DNA of 64,000 nt from Patescibacteria group bacterium (GCA_050953885.1 JBMNNJ010000002.1:41586-105585); one strand, 5' to 3'. Positions 26,875-56,741 are shown, counted from the stretch's first letter. Translations and numbers: made by a program. Notes: generated by a model from the letters alone, not told the origin.

Positions 26875-27083
26875 GAAAAATTAAACGGCTAAATTGTTAA
26901 ATTGCTAAATTGATAGAAAAGCATACTGGATACAACAGGATTTATAACAGGATTGAACGGGATCTTTTATCCTGTTTTACCCCGTAAACATCCTCTTTAA
27001 TCCCGTGTGCTTTGCCCCTTATTCGCTCATTCGTGTTTATTCGTTTCCCATTCGTGTCAATTCGCGTTTCAACAGTTTAACTG

Positions 27084-32053: not shown

Positions 32054-32459
32054 TTAAAACACGAATTTACACGAATAGGAAACGAATGAACGCGAACGAG
32101 CAAATAATATAAAAATAAATCAAATATCAAATATCAAAGCGCAAAACCAAGTTCAAAGACCAAAACCATAAACTCAATCCGCCAGCTGGCGGACAGAATC
32201 TAACTGATTCTGAATCAAGTTCAGAATGACACTAATCGTGACCGTCATTCTGACGAAAGTCAGAATCGAATAGCTAAAAGTTAAAATTCAAAAGTAAAAA
32301 TTAAAATTAAAAAGTAGAGCAAAAAAAACTTTTAACTTTTGACTTGCAATTTTGAATTTTGACTTTTTAATTTTGACTTTCCAAACCGATTTAGAAACGT
32401 ACACGTACCACCACCTATTTGGTATAAATTGCCACTGACGGACGATTCGTGAGCCTCCC

Positions 32460-36083: not shown

Positions 36084-36240
36084 AAGGTTGGATATTAAAC
36101 ATTTATTTTTATTTATTAAGTAAGCACACGGGATTAAACAGGATGTTTACAGGATAAAACAGGAAAAAAATCCCGTTCAATCCTGTAATAAATCCTGTTG
36201 TATCCTGTGTGCTTTGCGCCCACCATTCGCTCATTCGTGT

Positions 36241-37959
36241 TCATTCGTTTCCCATTCGTGTCAATTCGTGTTTCCATTCGCCTATCTTCCTCACCACTTC
36301 ATTATATTGTAGTATTTCTACTTTCTCTTTGTCTCTTTCTTTATACTCTATTGAATCGCCTGTTTTTGGGGAGACAATCAAACGAACAGGAATGCCGACT
36401 AAATCCGCGTCGGCAAATTTTTCCCCCGCCGAAACCTCCCGACGATCATCATAAAGAACTTCAATGCCATCTTTTAAAAAACGGTCAAAAATTGCTTCCG
36501 CTTTTTCAAAAGCGCCTTCTAAGGCGATCAGATGAACCTGATAAGGAGCAATACTCTTAGGCCAAATAATTCCCTTTTTATCATGATGAATTTCTACCAC
36601 CGTGGCCATTGTTCGTCCCAACCCAATACCATAACAACCCATATAGAAAGGCTTTTCTTTGCCCTTTTTATCAATAAAATTCGCTCCTTTCATAAGACGG
36701 GTATAGTGATAACCAAGCTCAAAAATATGGCCCACTTCAATCCCTTTAATTTCCTGAAGTTTTCCTTGACGACATTGGGGGCAAAAATCACCCTCTCGCG
36801 CGCAAGTAATATCCGCCAGTAAAGAGTAGGAAAAATCTCGGCCGTAATTAACATTAACCGTGTCGGTTTTGGCTTCTTTTTGGCCGCCAATAAAATTTTT
36901 TACCATTTTTAAACCTAAATCGCCTACATAAACCACTCCTTGATGTCCCCAGGAATGAACCCAACCATGTTTAGTGCCTATTTTCTCTAAATCTTCTGCC
37001 GTTGCCGGTTCAAGGCTTTCCACCCCCAAAACTCGCTTCAGCTTTGCTTCGTTTACTTCCTGATCACCGCGCAGGGAAGCAATAATTATTCTTCCTTTCT
37101 CGTCTTTATAAACAACATTTTTCAAAAATCGCCAAAGCGGTTGGCGGTAATGCTTTACATTATCCTCCATGGTGCAAACCCATTCCGGCTGGGGAATAAT
37201 TTCTAAAGGTTTTTCTTCTTCGTCAGGATTAAGGGGCGCAAGATAGGCTTGCGCTTTCTCCAAACTGGCCTGATAAGAACATTGGCGGCATTTTAAAACC
37301 GCATCTTCTCCATTTTTATCAGGAACCACAAATTCATGGCAACGCTCGCCGCCAATATAACCGCTGTCAGCTTCAACTACCAAAAAAGGCAACTCTAAGC
37401 TCTGGAAAATTTTTTCATAAGCTTGCCAAAAAAACCGGTAGGTTTCGGCAAAATCTTTCTTATTTTGGTCAAAAGAATAAGCGTCTTTCATGATAAATTC
37501 CCGCACCCGCAACAGCCCGCCCCGAAAACGCCGTTCGTCACGAAATTTGGTGGAAAATTGGTAAAGAAAAAAAGGCAAATCTTTATAGGAAAGCTTTTTC
37601 CGGCGCACCAGATCCACAAACATTTCCTCCGCCGTTCCTCCTAAGGCAAATTCCGCTCCTGACCGGCTCTTAACCTTCATCAACTCAAAAGAAACTGACG
37701 TTGTCCTTTTCGTTTCCTGCCATAAAGAAAGAGGGTGTAAAATCGGGGTGATCATCTCCTGCGCCCCAATCGCCTCCATTTCTCTTCTGATTACTTCTTC
37801 TATTTTTTGATGGACGCGCCAACCTAAGGGAAGAAAATAATATTCTCCGGCTGAACTTTCCTCAATAAAGCCGCCGCGCCGTAAAAGCTGGTGGCTTGCC
37901 ACCACTGCCTTTTTAAACGGCTCCTTGCTGGTTTTGCCAAAAAGTTTTGAATAACGCAT
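36241..37959 (-). CDS. proS: prolyl-tRNA synthetase (bacterial type); its last 15 codons read through an ATTCG repeat module
   Basis: The 572 aa ORF has class II motifs and a ProRS N-terminus (MRYSKLFGKT..., FRDERRFRGGLLRVREFIMKDAYSF). The C-terminus KIGEWKHELTRMGNE is encoded by the repeat ...ccattcgtgtcaattcgtgtttcc. Confidence 0.9.
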   Translation of the reverse strand: MRYSKLFGKTSKEPFKKAVVASHQLLRRGGFIEESSAGEYYFLPLGWRVHQKIEEVIRREMEAIGAQEMITPILHPLSLWQETKRTTSVSFELMKVKSRSGAEFALGGTAEEMFVDLVRRKKLSYKDLPFFLYQFSTKFRDERRFRGGLLRVREFIMKDAYSFDQNKKDFAETYRFFWQAYEKIFQSLELPFLVVEADSGYIGGERCHEFVVPDKNGEDAVLKCRQCSYQASLEKAQAYLAPLNPDEEEKPLEIIPQPEWVCTMEDNVKHYRQPLWRFLKNVVYKDEKGRIIIASLRGDQEVNEAKLKRVLGVESLEPATAEDLEKIGTKHGWVHSWGHQGVVYVGDLGLKMVKNFIGGQKEAKTDTVNVNYGRDFSYSLLADITCAREGDFCPQCRQGKLQEIKGIEVGHIFELGYHYTRLMKGANFIDKKGKEKPFYMGCYGIGLGRTMATVVEIHHDKKGIIWPKSIAPYQVHLIALEGAFEKAEAIFDRFLKDGIEVLYDDRREVSAGEKFADADLVGIPVRLIVSPKTGDSIEYKERDKEKVEILQYNEVVRKIGEWKHELTRMGNE

Positions 37960-40660: not shown

Positions 40661-40918
40661 AAAAAATAAATTACAAGTATATTACTCTCCTCATTTATTA
40701 TTACAATCTGACTCCGCCGATATAAAACGCGAAAATTAAATCAAAGAGTAAAGATCAAAGTGTAAAACCAAGTTCAAAAACCAAAACCAGAAGCTTAACA
40801 TTTTTGAACTTTGATTTAGGTTTTGATCTTTGATATTTGATTTTTGATTTATTTTTATATTATTCGCTCATTCGCGTCTATTCGTTTTCCATTCGTGTCA
40901 ATTCGTGTCGGCAGTTTT

Positions 40919-42002: not shown

Positions 42003-44174
42003 TTATCTCCTCACCCGGCGCGAAGCATCTCCCCGACTGGAGCGCTCATAGCGCCCTCGCGGGGAAGAAAAATGACTTAAGCGGGGACGTTCTTGATGCT
42101 CTTGAGGCTGGTTTGATCCATCTAAAATCATCGTTAAATTAATTCTTCCCTGATCATCAATTTCCCGCACCTTCACTTGTACCTTCTGGCCTTCATGAAC
42201 CACCTCGGCCGGATCTTTCACAAAATGAGTCGCCATTTGGGAAACATGAACTAAGCCCTCTTTTTGAGGCAGAATTTCCACAAACGCCCCAAAAGGCCGA
42301 ATCCGTTTTACCACTCCTTCAAAAATTTCCCCCGCTTTCACTTCCCGGGTTAGGTTTTTAACCCAGTTAACGGCGCGGTTAACTTCTTCCCCATTTGTGC
42401 CGGAAATGCTTACCTCGCCATTATCCTCCACATTAACCTCGCAACCCGTTTCTTCAATAATCTGGCGAATAATTTTCCCTCCCGGCCCGATTAAACCGCC
42501 AATTTTTTCCGGATCAATTTTCACCAAGGCCACCTTAGGCGCGTACTGGGAAACTTTTTCTCGCGCTTGCGGCAAAACGGCCAGCATTTTTGCCAAAATT
42601 TCCTCGCGGGCTTTCTTCGCTCTTGCCAAAACCTCATCAATGGCCGCTAAAACCAGCCCTTCATTTTTAACATCCATTTGAATGGCCGTCACCCCATTTT
42701 TCGTGCCCGTTACCTTAAAGTCCATCTCGCCGTTAAAATCCTCAATGCCGGCAATATCGGTTAAAATCGTCCATTTTTCTTGCTTACTGGCCATCCCCAA
42801 AGCAATTCCCGCCACCGGCTCCTTAATAGGCACCCCGGCATCCATCAGGGCCAAAGTTGAACCGCAAGTTGAAGCCATCGAAGTAGAGCCGTCAGATGAA
42901 AGCACCTCGGAAACCACCCGAATGGCATAAGGAAAAACATCCTTACCCGGCAAAACCGGTTCCAGGGCCTTTTCCGCCAATGCCCCGTGGCCAATTTCCC
43001 GCCTTTTGGGACCGGAGATAAAAGCGATTTCTCCCGAAGCAAAAGGAAGCATTGAATAATGATGCATATAACGTTTTGTTTCCTCGCCCTCCGGGCTTTC
43101 AATCCATTGTTCTAAGGAAAGGGGGCCTAAAGTCGCGATGGATAATACTTGCGTTTTCCCGCGGGTAAAAATAGCGCTGCCGTGAGTCCGTGGCAAAACT
43201 CCCACCTCTGCCGTAATGGGACGAATCTCATCAATTTTTCTTCCGTCCGGCCGCTCGCCTTCCAAAAGCTTTCCTCTTAACCATTTCTTAACCGCTTTCT
43301 CAAAAGCCAAACGGACCTTAATTTTGTCTTCCTCGGCAAAAGATGCCAAAACCGCTTCTTTAAGCGGGCTTAAGGCAAATTCCTCGCCCTTTCTTGCTTT
43401 CTCCCAAGCTTCTTCCAAATCTTTCTTAATTTTTTGGCTAATCTCTTTCTCAAGTTCAGGCGAAGCGTAAGAAACATAGGCCATTTTTTCCTTCCCTATC
43501 TCTTGACGCATTTTTTCGATAAAGTCAAGCAACCGTTGGGCCTCCTTAAAACCAAATTCAATTCCCGCCACCACTTTCTTTTCCTCTACCTGATTGCCTT
43601 TAGCCTCAATCATCACCACTTTTTCCCGGGTACAAGAAATTACCAAGTTAAGATCGGAAAATTCTTCGTCACCAGCCACCGGATTAATAAAATAAGTGTC
43701 CTCTTTCATCCCCACTTCCACTGTGGTTATGGGCCCCAAGAAGGGAATGTTGGAAAAAGAAAGCGCCGCCGCCGAGGCCAACGAGGCTAAAACCACCGGA
43801 TCATTCTCGCCGTCAACCGAAAGAACCGTCACCGTCACCTGAACTTCATTTAAAAACCCTTCGGGGAAAAGAGGGCGCAGAGAGCGATCAATCAACCGCC
43901 CCGCTAAAATTGCCTCATCAGTGGGCCGGCCTTCCCGCTTCACCCACCGGCTACCCTTAATCCGGCCGCCGGCATAAAGACGCTCCATATATTCAACATC
44001 AAGAGGAAAATAATCAAGATTGGTTGGATGAGGAGAGGCCACCACCGTGGCCAAAACCGCCGTCTGGCCATAAGTGGCCCACACCGCCGCGTTTGCCTGA
44101 CCAGCGAAATCACCTACTTCCAGTTTAAGCGTTCGCCCGCCGATTTCGATTTCCCGACTAATTTTTTTGGTCAT
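42003..44174 (-). CDS. pnp: polynucleotide phosphorylase
   Basis: The 723 aa ORF has two RNase PH domains, KH and S1 domains, and an Arg-rich C-terminal tail. Confidence 0.95.
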   Translation of the reverse strand: MTKKISREIEIGGRTLKLEVGDFAGQANAAVWATYGQTAVLATVVASPHPTNLDYFPLDVEYMERLYAGGRIKGSRWVKREGRPTDEAILAGRLIDRSLRPLFPEGFLNEVQVTVTVLSVDGENDPVVLASLASAAALSFSNIPFLGPITTVEVGMKEDTYFINPVAGDEEFSDLNLVISCTREKVVMIEAKGNQVEEKKVVAGIEFGFKEAQRLLDFIEKMRQEIGKEKMAYVSYASPELEKEISQKIKKDLEEAWEKARKGEEFALSPLKEAVLASFAEEDKIKVRLAFEKAVKKWLRGKLLEGERPDGRKIDEIRPITAEVGVLPRTHGSAIFTRGKTQVLSIATLGPLSLEQWIESPEGEETKRYMHHYSMLPFASGEIAFISGPKRREIGHGALAEKALEPVLPGKDVFPYAIRVVSEVLSSDGSTSMASTCGSTLALMDAGVPIKEPVAGIALGMASKQEKWTILTDIAGIEDFNGEMDFKVTGTKNGVTAIQMDVKNEGLVLAAIDEVLARAKKAREEILAKMLAVLPQAREKVSQYAPKVALVKIDPEKIGGLIGPGGKIIRQIIEETGCEVNVEDNGEVSISGTNGEEVNRAVNWVKNLTREVKAGEIFEGVVKRIRPFGAFVEILPQKEGLVHVSQMATHFVKDPAEVVHEGQKVQVKVREIDDQGRINLTMILDGSNQPQEHQERPRLSHFSSPRGRYERSSRGDASRRVRR

Positions 44175-44446
44175 TCTTTACTTTTTAAAGATAATTTACT
44201 TGTTAAAGCCTGATAGCGCTCTTTATCATTTTGCGCCAAATAATTAAGCAAGCGTCTTCTTTTGGAAACCAAAGAGAGAAGCCCTCGCCGCGAGTGAACA
44301 TCCTTAGGGTTTTCCCCCAAGTGAGCCGCCAGCTTATCAATTTGGGCGGAAAGCAAGGCCACCTGAACCTCCGGAGAACCGGTGTCTTCCTTGTCGTGAG
44401 AAAACTCTTTGATAATTTTTTCCTTTTCTTCTTTGGTTAGGGCCAT
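44171..44446 (-). CDS. rpsO: 30S ribosomal protein S15
   Basis: The 91 aa ORF has S15 motifs (GSPEVQVALLSAQIDKLAAHL..., HSRRGLL) and overlaps the pnp start, as in the canonical rpsO-pnp arrangement. Confidence 0.95.
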   Translation of the reverse strand: MALTKEEKEKIIKEFSHDKEDTGSPEVQVALLSAQIDKLAAHLGENPKDVHSRRGLLSLVSKRRRLLNYLAQNDKERYQALTSKLSLKSKE

Positions 44447-44449
44447 TCT

Positions 44450-45900
44450 GCGCGGTTAAAAAATGAAGCCTTCTTTTCTTTTAAGAAGCCCAATTTTTAC
44501 TCCTTATTTTTTAAGCTTTTCTAAGTTTAACCTAAAATTCCCCAAAAAACAAGAGGGAAATGTGCGGTGTCCAGGACATGCTATACACTTCATGAGGTTT
44601 GGGTATGAGGAATATGTAAGAAGAGTGTTAAAATTGGTGGGTGTTAATTTTGAGAGTGTAGTAAAGGGGGTGAAAAAGCATGAGTCCTGGAATCCATGGA
44701 ATCCGGATAGACTACAAGGAATTAAGAAAGATTAATCCAGAAGCAGCCAGACAAACAGTGATTGAGTATCTAAAGACTAATGGCCACAACATTGCTGATA
44801 CCGCCAGGGTTTTTAGGGTCAACAGGACAGTGGTTTATGACATCTTGGCAAAAAGCAAAGAGGGCAATCTTAAAGACAGACCCAAGATACCAAAACACCA
44901 GCCCAACAAGACACCAGCCAAGACAGAAGGTAAAGTCATTAAGGCCAAGAACAAAACCCACCTGGGGCCAAAAAGATTATCACGCTACCTTGAGAAACAT
45001 GAAGGGATTCTTGTTCCTCCAGGAACAATCAGGCACATTCTAAGGAGGAATAAAGACAGGCTTACTTACAAACTAAAATCAAACAAGAGAAGAAAACAAC
45101 CAAGGGAGTTTGTTGACTGGTATTCAGCTAAACCTTTTGAGATTGTCCAAATGGATATCAAATTCATTAGGGATCAGAAAGCCCTGACTAAAAAGCAAAT
45201 TATTCATCTTAACCAATATGATATTCCCAACTATCAATGGGGAGCCCTGGATGTTAACTCTAGGTTTAAACTAATTGCTTATTCCAAGGAAAAATCTTGG
45301 ACTAATGGTTTGTGTTTTTACCTTTGGACTATTTCCTGGTTAAGGTCTCATGGGGTTAAATCAGAGATTGCCTTTACTGTTGATAATGGTGAGGAATTTG
45401 GGGGTAGATCCTGGTTGAAGGTCAAAGAGTTAAGAAAACTGATCAGGGGTTTTGGCTGTAGATTAATCCAGAACCACAAAGGTCATCCTGAGGAGAATGC
45501 TCATTTGGAAAGAAGCCATAGAACCGATGACGAAGAGTTCTACATTCCCAGGGTCCTACAGATTAAGAGCAAAAAAGATCTCTTGAATGAGGCCCTGGGT
45601 TACATTTATTACTACAACAATGTCCGGGAACACTCATCCTTAGACTATCAAATACCCTACCAATATCTGAAAATGCAATTACCAGAGATTGATGATAACA
45701 TACGTTATGTACAACCGATTATCCTTGATGATGTCTCGGTAAAACTAGGCCCTTGGAGTGGATACAATGTCTTGGCACATCACCGAAAAAAGAAAGCAAA
45801 AGAAATTCTCAACCCTCGCTTACGCCTGAACCACGATAAATTTTGGGAGGATTAAAGTTTGTGGCCGTTGGGGCCTGAGAAAAAGAAGGGAAACGGCCTC
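44450..45900 (+). mobile_element. IS element insertion between rpsO and the DHH-like gene (ends not mapped)
   Basis: An intact transposase interrupts the conserved nusA-infB-(rbfA)-rpsO-pnp gene string. The 3-prime end of the transposase overlaps the stop region of the adjacent minus-strand gene by about 47 nt. Confidence 0.55.
44680..45855 (+). CDS. DDE (integrase-core, rve-type) transposase with N-terminal HTH; IS family uncertain (IS481/IS30-like single-ORF type)
   Basis: The 391 aa ORF has an HTH (TVIEYLKTNGHNIADTARVF), a DDE triad context (QMDIKF, ALDVNSR, ENAHLERSH) and a C-terminal NNVREHSSLDY motif. It is the only long plus-strand gene in a minus-strand operon. Confidence 0.85.
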   Translation: MSPGIHGIRIDYKELRKINPEAARQTVIEYLKTNGHNIADTARVFRVNRTVVYDILAKSKEGNLKDRPKIPKHQPNKTPAKTEGKVIKAKNKTHLGPKRLSRYLEKHEGILVPPGTIRHILRRNKDRLTYKLKSNKRRKQPREFVDWYSAKPFEIVQMDIKFIRDQKALTKKQIIHLNQYDIPNYQWGALDVNSRFKLIAYSKEKSWTNGLCFYLWTISWLRSHGVKSEIAFTVDNGEEFGGRSWLKVKELRKLIRGFGCRLIQNHKGHPEENAHLERSHRTDDEEFYIPRVLQIKSKKDLLNEALGYIYYYNNVREHSSLDYQIPYQYLKMQLPEIDDNIRYVQPIILDDVSVKLGPWSGYNVLAHHRKKKAKEILNPRLRLNHDKFWED

Positions 45901-46624
45901 CCCGGCGCAGACAAAAAGCGGCCGCCTCAAAAGCATCGGGAGAAGTTTTGGGATCAGAAAAAGAATCCGTGGCCACCTTAAGCCCCAAAAGTAAATTGCT
46001 CGCCTCCTCCTCGCCCAAAGGCAAGGAAAGTCCTTCAGCCAAGGCGGCCACGATTTCCGCATAAGAGGAAGCGCCGCCGTCAACCACCTTCAGCTGGCCA
46101 AAAGTGGCCATTTCGTTAAGATTAATATTTAAAATTTCTAATTTATTAAGATCGGGCGGGGTAGGTAACAATTGCCGTAGAACTTTTTCCAACTCATTAA
46201 GATTATCAAAACCAAAGGCAATTAAGTTTTGAAGCTCGCCGCCGCGATTGGCAAAAGAAACCATTTGGGGGGTAATTGTCGGGGCGCCTGCTTTTGGCTG
46301 AATTAAGAGGCTTACTTTTCTCTCCCGATCGTCCCAGGAAATTTTTTCAATATAATCTAAAGAATAGTCGATATTGACCACAAAAATTTTACCCTTAATT
46401 TCCTCGCTCACTTTATCTATCCCATAAATTTGGCTAAACTCTACCTTAAGAGGCTCGGGGCTGATAACCGGTGCCGCCTTGCCGGCTTTTGTTAATGCCG
46501 CGGAAAGAGCGCAAGCGGCCGCCACCTGATCAAGCTTCGGTTGCGACGGCAAAAAAATCGGCGTTTCTTCCGCCCGCGCTAACCAAACGTTAACTTCGGC
46601 AAAAGGATAATTTCTCTTATTCAT
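45809..46624 (-). CDS. NrnA-like DHH-family protein with a degenerate DHH motif (probably not catalytic)
   Basis: The 271 aa ORF has an N-terminal region (IFLPSQPKLDQVAAACALSAALTKAGK) that aligns to the DHH motif region (H..PDGDA.GS.LAL). The His/Asp residues are replaced. It occupies the rbfA/nrnA slot after infB. Confidence 0.45.
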   Translation of the reverse strand: MNKRNYPFAEVNVWLARAEETPIFLPSQPKLDQVAAACALSAALTKAGKAAPVISPEPLKVEFSQIYGIDKVSEEIKGKIFVVNIDYSLDYIEKISWDDRERKVSLLIQPKAGAPTITPQMVSFANRGGELQNLIAFGFDNLNELEKVLRQLLPTPPDLNKLEILNINLNEMATFGQLKVVDGGASSYAEIVAALAEGLSLPLGEEEASNLLLGLKVATDSFSDPKTSPDAFEAAAFCLRRGGRFPSFSQAPTATNFNPPKIYRGSGVSEG

Positions 46625-46629
46625 AAAGC

Positions 46630-48075
46630 CTATATATTTTTCTTGTATCTTATCACATCACCAACAGCAAAATCAAGACGGGGAGAAAAGACAGCGCCAA
46701 ACTCTTCTTTTGCCTTGGCTTTTTCAATGTCTTTTTTTCCTTCGCGAAGCGAGATAATTTTTGCTTCCCCCACCTTTTCCTTGCCTCGCCAAAGCTCAAC
46801 TTCTCCCCCTTTAACAATTTCTCCCCGCAAAACCTTGCCGCCCGCCACCATTTCTCCTTCCACATTGAATTTGGCCAAAATGCTTACCTCTCCCAAAATA
46901 TTTGCCTCCTCTTTTTGGGAAGAAAATCTTTTTATCTCTTCCTCTAAAGCCTCACTTAATTCGTAAATTAAATTAAAACGCTGAATCTTTACCCTCTCTA
47001 CCTCGGCTATCTCCTCGACCCCTTTCCCGCAAGAAACATTGAAGCCAAAAATTTTACCGCCAAAAGAAGACGCTAAAACCACATCCGACTCATTAATCTC
47101 TCCCACCCCCGAGTCTAAAATTGCTAATTTAGAAACGATCGGCAAGTTTAAAATTGCTTCCAAAACCCCTAAGGTGTCGGCCTTAAAAATTACCGCCAAT
47201 TTTCCCTCCGTTTCTTCAACCACTAATCTATCTTTTTGAAGACTCAATTTTTCTTCTAATTCCGCCACCTTCTTATTACTTAAAACCTTCTCTCCCACCG
47301 GCACCACGGCGGAAAAACCCAAAACTAAAACTGGCTGGCTTACTTGCGCCTTTACAATTGAACCCCCCCGATCATCAAAAATCGCCTTTACCTTTGCTTT
47401 TTGATTACCCGCCCACACTTCATCGTCTTTCTTTAGTTCTCCTTCTTGAACTAATAAACTCACCTCCGCTCCCCGCTGCGGATTAACCCCGCTTTCAATC
47501 ACCACCCCCGAAAAGGGAGCGTTAACAGGCGCCTTAAGATCATTCATCTTTGTTAAAAGCAAAATCATTTCCAAAAGGTCTTCTATCCCCGCGCCGGTTT
47601 TGGCCGAAACCGGCACCATTACCACCTCGCCCCCCCGCTCTTCAACCAAAACCCCTAAGGCCGTTAGCTGATTTTTCACTTTTTCCGGATCAGCCCCGGC
47701 AAGATCCATTTTATTTAAAGCAATTAAAAAGGGAACATTGGCTTCCTGAATATGCCGCAACGACTCTTCGGTTTGGGGCATCACCCCTTCGTTGGCGGCA
47801 ATCACCAACACCGCCAAATCGGTAACTTGGGCCCCACGAGATCGCATGTTAGCAAAGACTTCATGACCGGGAGTATCAATAAAAGTAATCTTTTCGCCCT
47901 GATATTCAATTTGATAAGCGCCAATTTTTTGGGTAATACCGCCAATTTCTTTTTGACTAATATTAGTTTGGCGAATTTTATCCAAAAGTGAAGTTTTCCC
48001 GTGATCAATATGACCTAAAAAGGCGACTACCGGCGGGCGAGGAGAAAACTGCGGGGAATAATTTTTGTCGACCAT
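46630..48075 (-). CDS. infB: translation initiation factor IF-2, short form that starts at the G domain
   Basis: The 481 aa ORF starts with the G domain (VVAFLGHIDHGKTSLLD, DTPGHEVF, NKMD). It has domain II and a C-terminal beta-barrel but no N-terminal extension. Confidence 0.9.
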   Translation of the reverse strand: MVDKNYSPQFSPRPPVVAFLGHIDHGKTSLLDKIRQTNISQKEIGGITQKIGAYQIEYQGEKITFIDTPGHEVFANMRSRGAQVTDLAVLVIAANEGVMPQTEESLRHIQEANVPFLIALNKMDLAGADPEKVKNQLTALGVLVEERGGEVVMVPVSAKTGAGIEDLLEMILLLTKMNDLKAPVNAPFSGVVIESGVNPQRGAEVSLLVQEGELKKDDEVWAGNQKAKVKAIFDDRGGSIVKAQVSQPVLVLGFSAVVPVGEKVLSNKKVAELEEKLSLQKDRLVVEETEGKLAVIFKADTLGVLEAILNLPIVSKLAILDSGVGEINESDVVLASSFGGKIFGFNVSCGKGVEEIAEVERVKIQRFNLIYELSEALEEEIKRFSSQKEEANILGEVSILAKFNVEGEMVAGGKVLRGEIVKGGEVELWRGKEKVGEAKIISLREGKKDIEKAKAKEEFGAVFSPRLDFAVGDVIRYKKNI

Positions 48076-48195: not shown

Positions 48196-48380
48196 ATAAA
48201 CTCAAATCTCAAATCGCAAAACTCAAAACTACAACTCAAAACTCAAATCTAAAAAACAACTTTAAGCTTTAAAAAGTTTTAACATTTACCATGTAGTTTT
48301 GCCATTTGCCATTTGCGTTTTGAGTTTATTTTTCGTGTTTATTCGTTTCCTATTCGTGTTAATTCGTGTATCTTAACAAT
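48196..48380. repeat. palindromic intergenic element, family 2, second copy (infB-nusA spacer)
   Basis: Near-identical core to the copy at 38030-38175. Confidence 0.6.
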
Positions 48381-48398
48381 TTAACAGCTTATCCCTTT

Positions 48399-49400
48399 CT
48401 ATTTCTCCTTCTTTTTCTTTCCCCCTTCTCCCTCAATATCAATCTCATAACCGGTTAATTCGGAAGCCAGGCGTACATTTTGGCCATTTTTACCAATCGC
48501 CAGAGAAAGTTGGTCCTCGGGCGCCAAAACTTTTGCCCGTTTTTCTTTTTCATCAATTTCAATTTTCAAGTTTTCGGCCGGCAGAAGAGCCGCCTCAATC
48601 ATCTCTTGGGGATTATTACTATATTGGATCACGTCAATTTTTTCTCCCCCCAAACTGTTAATCACTTGAGTAACCCGGACTCCTTTCTGACCTACACAAG
48701 CTCCCACCGGATCCACATTGCGGCGTTTAGAATAAACAGCAATTTTAGTTCGCACCCCCGGTTCCCGCGCTATTGCTCTAATCTCCACCGTTCCATTGGC
48801 AATCTCGGGCACTTCTCGCCGAAAAAGCGCTTCCACCAATTCCCTCGTGGCGCGCGAGAGAATAATTCGCCGCTCCTCTCCTTCGCCGCTAATTTCTTTA
48901 ATATAAAAATCAAATTTCACCCCCGGTAGATAATCTTCTCCTTTTAACTGCTCGCTTGGGGGCAAAAACCCGTAAGTGCGGCCAATATCAATAATCGCCT
49001 GCTTCTGATAATCATCAAAGCGGATTACTGTTCCCTGCACCACGGTGCCGATTTTCCCCTGATAATCGTCAATCACCGCCATTTTTTCCGCCTCTCTTAC
49101 TTTCTGGATAATCACCTGCTTGGCCACCTGGGTGGCAATCCGGCCAAAACCAGGCGGGGTCACCTCTTCCTTGCCTTTCTTGCCTTTAATAAAAACTTTT
49201 GCCTCACCCGTCTTCTCGTCGATAATCACCTCATAATCGCCTTCCGGGGCAACACCATTTTTTTCCTGATAATCTTTTTCAAAAGCGGCTAAGATCGCCT
49301 CAATAATTGCCTCAATAATTGCCTCGGCGTCAATGTGGCGCTCCCGAGCCAGTTCTTCCACGGCAGTGGCAAACTCAGTTCGTTGTAATGTTCTTGGCAT
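48399..49400 (-). CDS. nusA: transcription termination/antitermination factor NusA (S1 + KH domains only)
   Basis: The 333 aa ORF has the NusA N-terminal domain, S1 and two KH motifs (VGACVGQKGVRV, IGKNGQNVRLAS). Confidence 0.9.
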   Translation of the reverse strand: MPRTLQRTEFATAVEELARERHIDAEAIIEAIIEAILAAFEKDYQEKNGVAPEGDYEVIIDEKTGEAKVFIKGKKGKEEVTPPGFGRIATQVAKQVIIQKVREAEKMAVIDDYQGKIGTVVQGTVIRFDDYQKQAIIDIGRTYGFLPPSEQLKGEDYLPGVKFDFYIKEISGEGEERRIILSRATRELVEALFRREVPEIANGTVEIRAIAREPGVRTKIAVYSKRRNVDPVGACVGQKGVRVTQVINSLGGEKIDVIQYSNNPQEMIEAALLPAENLKIEIDEKEKRAKVLAPEDQLSLAIGKNGQNVRLASELTGYEIDIEGEGGKKKKEK

Positions 49401-49509: not shown

Positions 49510-49895
49510 TTAAGTTAAGATTGTTTTTAATTTAACACAACCACCCCTTAAAGTCAAACACTGTGTACTGGCTGACCACATCGGCCTGCCTGCCGGCAAG
49601 GCAGGTAACACTTTAAAGAATCTTTCTTGAGCATACCCTAAGGGTGTTTGGTAATCAAGGGCTTGATGAGGACGATGAGCACGGTCTTCAATAAACCATT
49701 TAGTTAAAAAAAGATTAGCCTGACTAATGTTATCAAGCCCTACCAGGCTTGGGGACAACCATTCTTCCTGAAGAGTCCGGTTGAATCTTTCTGAGGAAGC
49801 ATTATCCTTAGGCTGTCTTACCCAAGAAGAGACTGGGGTGATATTAAGATCTTGACAGGCTTTGGTAAAGTGTCCGGCAGGAAAGTTTCTTTGGC
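49510..49895 (-). pseudogene. 3-prime remnant of an IS481-like transposase (integrase-core C-terminus only)
   Basis: The minus-strand translation reads ...KACQDLNITPVSSWVRQPKDNASSERFNRTLQEEW...HRPHQALDYQTPL, the C-terminal rve region. There is no N-terminal HTH or first Asp. Confidence 0.6.
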
Positions 49896-50185
49896 CATTT
49901 TAAATTAGAAGCCGGAGGCCTAAATCGTTTTAAATTACTTGGAGAACTGATTGAATACATTTACCAACAAGGATATTATTAAATAAACGAATTCACTCAG
50001 TTCTTAAAATGACGCCAACAGAAAAAAGAAAGGGGATGACTGTCTAAAAAATTAGGTACTTGACATTTTTATGCCCTCTAATTCTTCTTTATCAAATATT
50101 CCCCACCCCTTCAAAACCAGCGGTGGCTTTAATTTTGAGTTTTTGTTTGAATTTATTCTATCCATTGTTTTATTTTTGGTAAAAC

Positions 50186-56569: not shown

Positions 56570-56741
56570 AATATTTCAAACATTATGGAATAGCGCAGTT
56601 TACTGTGCACCAATTATTCGCTCATTCGTATCCATTCGTTTTTAATTCGTGTCAATTCGCGTTTTTTAATAATTTAGCAATTTGCTTATCATGCCTCATG
56701 AATAGGGGAAATTTGAAGCAAAGAATTTACCTTCGTCTTTC

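What the first reader, a model, noticed from the sequence alone, without database searches (positions are those of the whole stretch)
44450..46624. IS insertion inside the nusA-infB-...-rpsO-pnp operon, next to a degenerate DHH (NrnA-like) gene
An intact 391 aa DDE transposase (plus strand) sits between rpsO and the infB-proximal gene, in an otherwise uninterrupted minus-strand operon. Its 3-prime end overlaps the stop region of the DHH-like gene. The DHH-like protein occupies the slot of rbfA/nrnA but has lost the catalytic DHH residues (SQPKLDQ where H..PDGD is expected). The insertion probably separates rpsO-pnp from its upstream promoter.
Basis: partly seen in the sequence, partly recalled or inferred. 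Interest (0 to 1): 0.5.

Follow-up and report, generated by a model that had tools for sequence, protein, structure and literature searches.

The report
Promoter-homing IS beside dead DHH gene
A real 1.2-kb jumping gene (IS481 family) sits 8 bp upstream of the rpsO promoter in a Shapirobacteria translation operon. Over 100 related copies elsewhere sit at the same fixed distance from bacterial promoters, so this lineage seems to home to promoters; the neighbouring 'degenerate DHH' gene is a conserved, catalytically dead DHH-fold protein, not a decaying gene.

Summary
The window carries a Ca. Shapirobacteria-like cluster on the minus strand: nusA-infB-X-rpsO-pnp. A 1,224-bp IS481-family element (44561-45784, plus strand) lies between X and rpsO, flanked by a 4-bp duplication (GAAA). 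It is absent from the same site in relatives. The transposase has no stop codon inside the element, so it reads 71 nt into the flank. That explains the 47-nt overlap with X.

The new point is that this spacing recurs. In about 120 independent insertions of this lineage, the left end lies 8 nt (4-bp-duplication clade) or 19 nt (15-bp clade) from a TTGACA-N17-TATAAT promoter that fires away from the element. Several of these promoters drive tRNA genes. I found no published description. Whether this reflects targeting or selection is inferred, not shown.

The parts
44561..45784 (+). IS481-family insertion sequence, 1,224 bp
   Evidence: The ends were fixed by register with multi-copy relatives whose target duplications are exact, and by where near-identical copies diverge from the window. 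The element is absent from the orthologous site in L001/L002.
44561..44588 (+). Left inverted repeat, TGTGCGGTGTCCAGGACATGCTATACAC
   Evidence: Conserved across about 80 related copies. It matches the reverse complement of the right repeat at 20 of 28 positions with a 1-nt indel (read from the sequence).
45758..45784 (+). Right inverted repeat, ending ...GGCACATCACC
   Evidence: Alignment A3: all copies are identical up to CACC or TACC and then diverge. In the 15-bp clade the duplication starts immediately after this end.
44557..44560 (.). Target-site duplication, left copy (GAAA)
   Evidence: sequence. A 4-bp duplication also flanks 8 of 11 MAG copies of the same clade.
45785..45788 (.). Target-site duplication, right copy (GAAA)
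   Evidence: sequence.
44680..45855 (+). Transposase ORF, 391 aa. Residues 1-368 are IS-encoded; the last 23 residues and the stop codon come from flanking DNA.
   Evidence: Homologues vary in length (356-482 aa) and diverge after about 93% of the query.
44524..44552 (-). rpsO promoter-like element: -35 TTGTTT (44552-44547), 17-nt spacer, -10 TAAACT (44529-44524). It starts 8 nt from the IS left end.
   Evidence: The same element is conserved in L001 and, as CTCTTGTTTTTT...TAGAAT, in L091/L092. Not verified experimentally.
44171..44446 (-). rpsO (ribosomal protein S15)
   Evidence: Pfam Ribosomal_S15, 6e-32.
42003..44174 (-). pnp (polynucleotide phosphorylase)
   Evidence: translation. The orthologue in L001 carries RNase_PH/KH/S1 domains.
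45809..46624 (-). X: a 271-aa stand-alone DHH-fold protein with no catalytic motifs, no DHHA1 domain and a conserved C-terminal PKIYRG. The gene is intact; its stop codon lies 24 nt from the IS right end.
46630..48075 (-). infB (short IF2, 481 aa). Its stop codon lies 5 nt before the start of X.
48399..49400 (-). nusA

Best explanation
What is there:
- A 1,224-bp IS481-family insertion sequence (44561-45784) transposed into the 134-bp spacer between X and rpsO, in a Ca. Shapirobacteria nusA-infB-X-rpsO-pnp cluster.
- It duplicated 4 bp (GAAA) and left both neighbouring genes intact.

Why it landed there:
- This IS lineage integrates at a fixed distance upstream of the -35 hexamer of sigma-70-type promoters.
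- The promoter-proximal joint is always 4 nt from the hexamer. The distal joint is 4 or 15 bp further out.
- The left end, which carries the start of the transposase gene, faces the promoter. The transposase is therefore transcribed divergently from it.
- rpsO has its own internal promoter, and that promoter was the target.

Consequences:
- rpsO-pnp keep their core promoter.
- They lose everything upstream of about -44.
- They lose direct read-through from infB-X, which now has to cross 1.2 kb antisense to the transposase gene.

Overlap with X:
- The transposase ORF has no stop codon inside the element and ends in flank DNA. This creates the convergent 47-nt overlap.

What X is:
- X is a conserved pseudo-enzyme: an NrnA-type DHH domain that has lost its metal-binding residues and its DHHA1 partner domain.
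- It has gained a roughly 40-aa beta insertion and a PKIY(K/R)G tail.
- It probably acts as a non-catalytic binding or scaffold factor linked to IF2, S15 or PNPase.

Shown versus inferred:
- Shown: the IS boundaries, the empty site, the DHH fold, the motif loss, the conservation of X, and the statistical association of the IS with promoters.
- Inferred: that the association arises at the integration step, that the motif upstream of rpsO is an active promoter, and any function for X.
For: The insertion is real:
- The empty site is seen in L001/L002.
- The 4-bp duplication GAAA flanks the element, matching the 4-bp duplications of clade relatives.
- The best family match is IS481, and the DDE triad is intact.
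- Copies 99% identical sit in different flanks.
- The identical 391-aa product, including its flank-encoded tail, is found in three other sequencing runs. This allele is therefore real and widespread, not an assembly artefact.

The lineage sits next to promoters:
- In 16 copies within one Anaerolineaceae genome, exact 15-bp duplications define the ends. TTGAC follows 19 nt from the left end, and TATAAT follows 17 nt after that.
- In 58 unique genome sites, 64% score at least 8 of 12 against the promoter consensus at the fixed offset. About 1% of random positions do so, and the right flanks score like background.
- In 62 further unique metagenome flanks of the window's own clade, positions 9-14 read T57 T54 G52 A43 C42 A33 (of 62). 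Positions 32-37 read TA.AAT, and 81% score at least 8 of 12.
- Among 47 sites with a strong -35, 33 have TAnnnT in register. Out-of-register controls predict 4.25.
- Four of the promoters sit 11-18 nt upstream of tRNA 5' ends.
- The motif is present at the empty site in L001 and upstream of rpsO in L088-L092. It therefore belongs to the target, not to the IS.

X is a conserved dead DHH domain:
- A family profile hits NrnA-type structures at 2e-14.
- Motif columns across 186 family members show loss of the catalytic residues.
- dN/dS is 0.04-0.07.
- Synteny is conserved.
Against: - No transcription data exist. The window's -35 (TTGTTT) matches the consensus at only 3 of 6 positions.
- Promoter proximity could partly reflect survival of harmless insertions rather than targeting.
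- Most metagenome contigs (49 of 64) show no duplication at all. I attribute this to chimeric assembly across a repeat, but I have not proved it.
- A crude ORF-orientation test did not separate left flanks from right flanks.
- The IS481 profile score (134 bits) is below NCBI's curated cut-off (224).
- The right terminus ends in ACC rather than the family-typical ACA.
- A close relative's contig (L003) diverges 13 nt before the IS end into unrelated sequence. This is unexplained.
- No function for X was tested.
Confidence: 0.8

Rival explanations
1. The IS inserts more or less at random, or at a short sequence such as TTGAC. The promoter association is produced afterwards by selection. In compact genomes, only insertions just upstream of a core promoter are harmless enough to persist.
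For: - Genomes of CPR (Candidate Phyla Radiation) bacteria and Anaerolineae are gene-dense.
- The -10 signal is weaker than the -35 signal. This fits sequence recognition of the hexamer alone, followed by filtering.
- The ORF-orientation test was uninformative.
Against: - Selection alone cannot give single-nucleotide register. TTG is at exactly positions 9-11 in 61 of 81 sites, and at positions 20-22 in up to 41 of 44 sites. Selection also would not fix the orientation.
- The promoter-proximal joint stays 4 nt from the hexamer in both duplication-length clades.
- Other harmless places, such as gaps between convergent gene ends, are not used.
Confidence: 0.15
2. The transposase-like gene is a domesticated, fixed single-copy host gene at this locus.
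For: The same insertion allele, with an identical 391-aa product, is seen in three other samples. Only one copy lies in the 64-kb window.
Against: - It is absent from the orthologous site in all relatives examined.
- It is bounded by inverted repeats and a target duplication.
- Copies 99% identical lie in unrelated flanks.
- More than 1,100 homologues were found, mostly on short contigs. Up to about 25 copies occur per genome, with perfect duplications.
Confidence: 0.02
3. The 271-aa gene is a decaying nrnA pseudogene, or alternatively a still-active atypical phosphoesterase.
For: It is DHH-related and lacks the canonical residues. JGI names two homologues 'nanoRNase/pAp phosphatase'. One Asp of motif I (D32) is invariant.
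Against: - The ORF is full-length and dN/dS is 0.04-0.07.
- The family has 1,292 clusters, with its own invariant residues and a conserved tail.
- Both His residues and three of the five Asp ligands are missing, and there is no DHHA1 substrate-binding domain.
Confidence: 0.05

Closest known systems
IS481 family, in particular the sublineage with 4-bp or 15-bp target duplications (prokaryotic ISMac4 and ISA0963-1; eukaryotic IS481EU; PMC10045372)
   Same: It has a single-ORF DDE transposase with N-terminal HTH domains, and its best profile hit is IS481. It is about 1.2 kb long and has a TGT left terminus. Sister clades show discrete 4-bp versus 15-bp duplications.
   Different: The profile score is below the curated cut-off. 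The right terminus is ACC, not ACA. The ORF has no internal stop codon. The strict placement and orientation relative to -35/-10 promoters is not mentioned in that paper. It did not turn up in six full-text searches either. Classic IS481/IS1002 target NCTAGN (from my own knowledge).
Promoter- or signal-homing mobile elements: Ty3 and Dictyostelium TRE5-A (Pol III promoters); IS900-type IS110-family elements (between ribosome-binding site and start codon); IS1397/ISKpn1 (REP sequences); Tn7 (attTn7)
   Same: They integrate at a fixed distance and orientation from a functional genomic signal, in a place that spares coding sequence. TRE5-A was listed; the other examples are from my own knowledge.
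   Different: Here the element is a bacterial DDE insertion sequence and the signal is a sigma-70-type promoter. No tethering factor is known. The comparison concerns how it works, not family membership.
NrnA / Rv2837c (CnpB) / TM1595 DHH-DHHA1 phosphoesterases
   Different: X has no DHHA1 domain. In motif I the first Asp is replaced. Motif III (DHH) reads N-L-N and the motif IV Asp is Ala. X also has an extra beta insertion of about 40 aa and a PKIY(K/R)G tail.
Catalytically inactive DHH-fold scaffolds (Cdc45; archaeal RecJ-Cdc45/GAN; PF0399 DHH domain)
   Different: They are much more distant than the NrnA-type hits, with different partners and domain architecture. No evidence links X to replication.

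Membership tests
IS481 family of insertion sequences | DDE transposase matching the IS481 profile | tested here: inconclusive
   NF033577 transpos_IS481 is the best hit (E 6e-39, 134 bits, full length), far ahead of IS3 (3e-14). It is nevertheless below the curated cut-off of 224 bits.
IS481 family of insertion sequences | Single transposase ORF without the programmed frameshift of IS3; intact catalytic DDE triad | tested here: met
   One uninterrupted 391-aa ORF with D159, D235 and E271/272.
IS481 family of insertion sequences | Terminal inverted repeats with TGT...ACA tips | tested here: inconclusive
   The left tip is TGTG. The right tip is ...CACC (reverse complement GGTG). The repeats match at 20 of 28 positions with one indel.
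IS481 family of insertion sequences | Target-site duplication within the family range (2-15 bp) | tested here: met
   4 bp (GAAA) here; 4 bp in 8 of 11 clade relatives; 15 bp in the sister clade. The range is given in PMC10045372.
DHH/DHHA1 phosphoesterases (NrnA type) | DHH-domain fold | tested here: met
DHH/DHHA1 phosphoesterases (NrnA type) | Metal-binding motifs DxD, D, DHH, D | tested here: not met
   The window protein has K30-x-D32, N168-L169-N170 and A218. Across 186 family members only D32 is conserved.
DHH/DHHA1 phosphoesterases (NrnA type) | C-terminal DHHA1 domain with the GGGH motif | tested here: not met
   There is no Pfam DHH or DHHA1 hit. Alignments to NrnA end at about residue 200 of the enzymes. 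Residues 243-271 are a low-confidence tail.
RbfA (the gene often found after infB) | Small KH-fold protein matching the RBFA family | tested here: not met
   No Pfam or NCBIfam hit. The fold is DHH, not KH.

The most novel reading that the evidence does not exclude
This IS481-family lineage is widespread in Chloroflexota and CPR (Candidate Phyla Radiation) bacteria. The most novel reading is that it is a bacterial promoter-homing transposon. Its transpososome would read the -35 hexamer, either directly or through promoter-bound RNA polymerase/sigma. It would then integrate 4 nt upstream of the hexamer in one orientation, using promoters as safe havens much as Ty3 and TRE5-A use Pol III promoters.

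If so, its insertion sites are a natural, single-nucleotide-resolution map of promoters in uncultured phyla. In addition, the dead-DHH protein X could be a lineage-specific, non-catalytic factor of the IF2/S15/PNPase module.
Probability: 0.55. Interest if true: 0.75.

Novelty: new variant of a known kind. Interest (0 to 1): 0.6.

Why it matters
As first described, an IS sitting in an operon is ordinary. Three things make this case more interesting.

1. The element belongs to a lineage whose copies mark sigma-70-type promoters with single-nucleotide register. I am not aware of this target specificity being described for a bacterial DDE insertion sequence. It offers a testable model for how a transposase recognises a promoter, directly or via RNA polymerase.

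2. The insertions give free promoter annotations for uncultured CPR (Candidate Phyla Radiation) and Chloroflexota genomes. In this window they point to an internal rpsO promoter.

3. The neighbouring gene defines a large, unannotated family of catalytically dead DHH-domain proteins locked into the infB-rpsO-pnp neighbourhood of CPR bacteria. That makes it a candidate missing factor in their reduced translation and RNA-decay machinery.

Tried and rejected
- A generic inverted-repeat search found no terminal repeats, because the repeats are imperfect and contain an indel. My first hand-drawn boundaries were ambiguous.
- I first expected a 15-bp duplication by analogy with the Anaerolineaceae copies. 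The window flanks match at only 10 of 15 positions. I rejected this in favour of the exact 4-bp GAAA once clade relatives showed 4-bp duplications.
- There is no second copy of the IS in the window.
- A mechanical ORF-orientation test for genes downstream of the targeted promoters was uninformative: 39 of 57 left flanks versus 45 of 73 right flanks. tRNA mapping worked better.
- Rfam found nothing in the region, and only one tRNA in the whole window.
- The hairpin-like stretch in the rpsO leader folds no better than shuffled sequence, z = 0.43. I make no claim of an S15 operator or terminator.
- The generic promoter scan did not flag the rpsO element, because it matches only 7 of 12 positions.
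- The transposase N-terminus shows no sigma-70 region 4 similarity and has no solved homologue by sequence.
- The idea that the -35 hexamer mimics the GACA-containing core of the inverted repeats remains speculation.
- The AlphaFold-database fold library was unavailable.

Full report
**1. What is in the window**

ORF listing and family scans show a minus-strand cluster:
- nusA (48399-49400)
- infB (46630-48075, a short 481-aa IF2)
- a 271-aa gene, here called X (45809-46624), which starts 5 nt after the infB stop codon
- rpsO (44171-44446)
- pnp (42003-44174)
- then a Lon-lid AAA protein, a UDG-family protein and RNase J

On the plus strand between X and rpsO lies a 391-aa ORF (44680-45855). 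It carries an rve_3 integrase core and N-terminal HTH domains. Its best NCBIfam match is transpos_IS481 (6e-39, below the curated cut-off). IS3 is far behind at 3e-14. The catalytic residues D159, D235 and E271/272 are present. GC content and GC skew change over 44.4-45.8 kb. The closest named relative of X is from Candidatus Shapirobacteria, so the window comes from a bacterium of the Candidate Phyla Radiation (CPR), Microgenomates group.

**2. It is a genuine insertion, with defined ends**

A Shapirobacteria genome (L001, GCA_018052565) carries nusA-infB-X-rpsO-pnp with a 181-bp X-rpsO spacer and no transposase. BLAST against it breaks at window position 45814 and resumes at 44561. Relatives whose X is only 29-51% identical have the same uninterrupted gene order.

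The generic repeat finder missed the terminal repeats. I therefore fixed the ends by comparison with other copies:
- Copies 99% identical in other contigs (L004, L005) and 81% identical copies (L006/L007) agree with the window up to ...GGCACATCACC (45784). They then diverge.
- A genome-collection scan returned 80 loci. These include 16-25 copies in single Anaerolineaceae genomes that are flanked by exact 15-bp duplications.
- Those copies define the tips as 5'-TGTG...(C/T)ACC-3'.

In register with them, the window element is 44561-45784 (1,224 bp). MAG copies of the window's own clade (68-78% amino-acid identity) carry 4-bp duplications in 8 of 11 cases. The window has an exact GAAA at 44557-44560 and again at 45785-45788.

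The 4-bp versus 15-bp dichotomy, one helical turn apart, is already documented for an IS481 sublineage (PMC10045372).

The ORF has no stop codon inside the element. Residues 369-391 and the stop codon are flank-encoded. This explains both the variable lengths of homologues and the 47-nt convergent overlap with X. X itself is intact; its stop codon lies 24 nt outside the IS.

The exact 391-aa product, tail included, occurs in three other sequencing runs, on contigs that span either junction (L093-L095). This allele is therefore real and widespread. It is not domesticated:
- More than 1,100 homologues exist, mostly on short contigs as expected for a repeat.
- Copies 99% identical sit in unrelated flanks.

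**3. Why it sits there: the lineage is found next to promoters**

Reading outward from the left end, the Anaerolineaceae copies all show 19 nt, then TTGAC(A/T), about 17 nt, then TATAAT. The 4-bp-duplication clade shows 8 nt and then the same motif. In both clades the duplicated segment is followed by exactly 4 nt before the hexamer.

Quantitatively:
- Of 58 unique genome sites, 64% score at least 8 of 12 against TTGACA/TATAAT at the fixed offset. Only 0.6-1.1% of random positions in the same loci do, and right flanks look like background.
- A metagenome scan added 62 unique left flanks of the window's clade. Positions 9-14 read T57 T54 G52 A43 C42 A33 (of 62). Positions 32-37 read T40 A39. 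A35 A35 T38. 81% score at least 8 of 12.
- Among 47 sites with a strong -35, 33 have TAnnnT at a 16-18 nt spacing. Out-of-register controls predict 4.25.
- In four Anaerolineaceae loci a tRNA gene begins 59-66 nt from the IS end. That is 11-18 nt after the -10 element, as expected for real promoters.

The motif belongs to the target, not to the IS. It lies beyond the duplication. It is also present at the empty site in L001 and upstream of rpsO in L088-L092.

The window fits the pattern exactly: IS end, TTTCCCTC, TTGTTT, 17 nt, TAAACT, then 77 nt to the rpsO ATG.

I infer that integration itself is directed to promoters. The single-nucleotide register and fixed orientation are hard to obtain by selection alone. 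The -35 element is more strongly conserved than the -10 element. This hints that the hexamer is read either directly or through bound sigma/RNA polymerase. I could not distinguish these two options. The transposase N-terminus shows no region-4 similarity. Six full-text searches found no description of such targeting.

**4. Consequences for the operon**

The core rpsO promoter-like element is intact. What is lost is DNA upstream of about -44, plus uninterrupted read-through from infB-X. Any such read-through must now cross the element antisense to the transposase gene. Consensus scans give no convincing terminator there. No transcript data exist, so the net effect on rpsO-pnp expression is unknown.

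**5. The 271-aa protein X**

The alignments place the catalytic motifs as follows:

| DHH motif | Residues in X |
|---|---|
| I (DxD) | K30-L31-D32 |
| II (D) | D86 (variable in the family) |
| III (DHH) | N168-L169-N170 |
| IV (D) | A218 |

There is no DHHA1 domain. A beta insertion of about 40 residues (around residues 88-128) and a disordered tail ending in PKIYRG are added.

Across 186 family representatives only D32 of the metal ligands is conserved. In contrast, E190, T219, G242 and the P-K-I-Y/F-K/R-G tail are nearly invariant. The exhaustive search finds 1,292 clusters at E<1e-30 with full-length matches. dN/dS against two orthologues is 0.04 and 0.07.

X is therefore a conserved pseudo-enzyme, not a decaying nrnA. 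Its tight coupling to infB and its invariant neighbourhood suggest a non-catalytic role tied to translation initiation, S15/30S assembly or PNPase. That role is inference only. I found no literature on it.

**6. Verdict**

The IS is a new member of the IS481 family. The added value is the promoter-linked placement of its lineage, which I rate as a new variant of a known kind, together with the recognition of X as a large dead-DHH family. I am highly confident about the anatomy. I am moderately confident that promoter association arises at the integration step. My confidence in any specific function for X is low.

Noticed in passing
window 48332-48386, 40837-40908, 36225-36273, 27019-27081, 56614-56681, 32056-32130, 7695-7766, 4129-4235, 2432-2543; also L005:1580-1727: A dispersed intergenic repeat with at least 9 copies in 64 kb. 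Its core is ACACGAATTRACACGAATGGGAAACGAATGRACACGAATGAGCGAATAA, with ACGAAT recurring about every 11 nt. A-rich runs of roughly 10-nt period, such as AAAAGTCAAAATTC, often follow it. One copy fills part of the low-GC 323-bp gap between nusA and infB. The repeat also occurs on the metagenome contig that carries a 99% identical IS copy.
   Followed up: partly
window 49561-49899 (-): A truncated C-terminal fragment (about 113 aa) of a different rve-type transposase lies just upstream of nusA. It contains a PKDNASSERFNRT...HRPHQALDYQTP segment and is about 30% identical to transposases found next to this IS family in other loci. It ends next to a promoter-like TTGACT-16-TTAAAT that faces nusA. This may be a second, older promoter-proximal IS insertion in the same cluster.
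   Followed up: partly
L003:1027-1269 versus window 45797: A metagenome contig whose X is 98% identical (96% nt) follows the window to 13 nt short of the IS right end. It then continues into unrelated sequence that seems to start a membrane-protein gene, not rpsO or the IS. It could be a rearrangement at this spot, a different insertion, or a chimeric contig.
   Followed up: partly
L027-L083 (Anaerolineaceae MAGs) versus L008-L023 and the window: Sister clades of the same IS make either 15-bp or 4-bp target duplications. The joint nearest the promoter stays 4 nt from the -35 hexamer in both, so only the distal joint moves, by one helical turn.
   Followed up: yes
L096-L175 (metagenome contigs): 49 of 64 contigs spanning both IS ends show no target duplication at all. 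In MAG and complete-contig copies, duplications are the rule. Short-read assemblies probably join the left and right flanks of different copies.
   Followed up: no
L120, L147, L142, L164, L031 (right flanks of the IS): In several loci another rve-type transposase gene lies directly beyond the right end of this IS, on the opposite strand. L120 and L147 share the same flank sequence there. This suggests IS-next-to-IS clustering.
   Followed up: no
window 48399-49400: NusA is 333 aa here, compared with 351-404 aa in relatives (L001 373 aa). The repeat-filled 323-bp gap follows it. The C-terminus may have been shortened or replaced.
   Followed up: no
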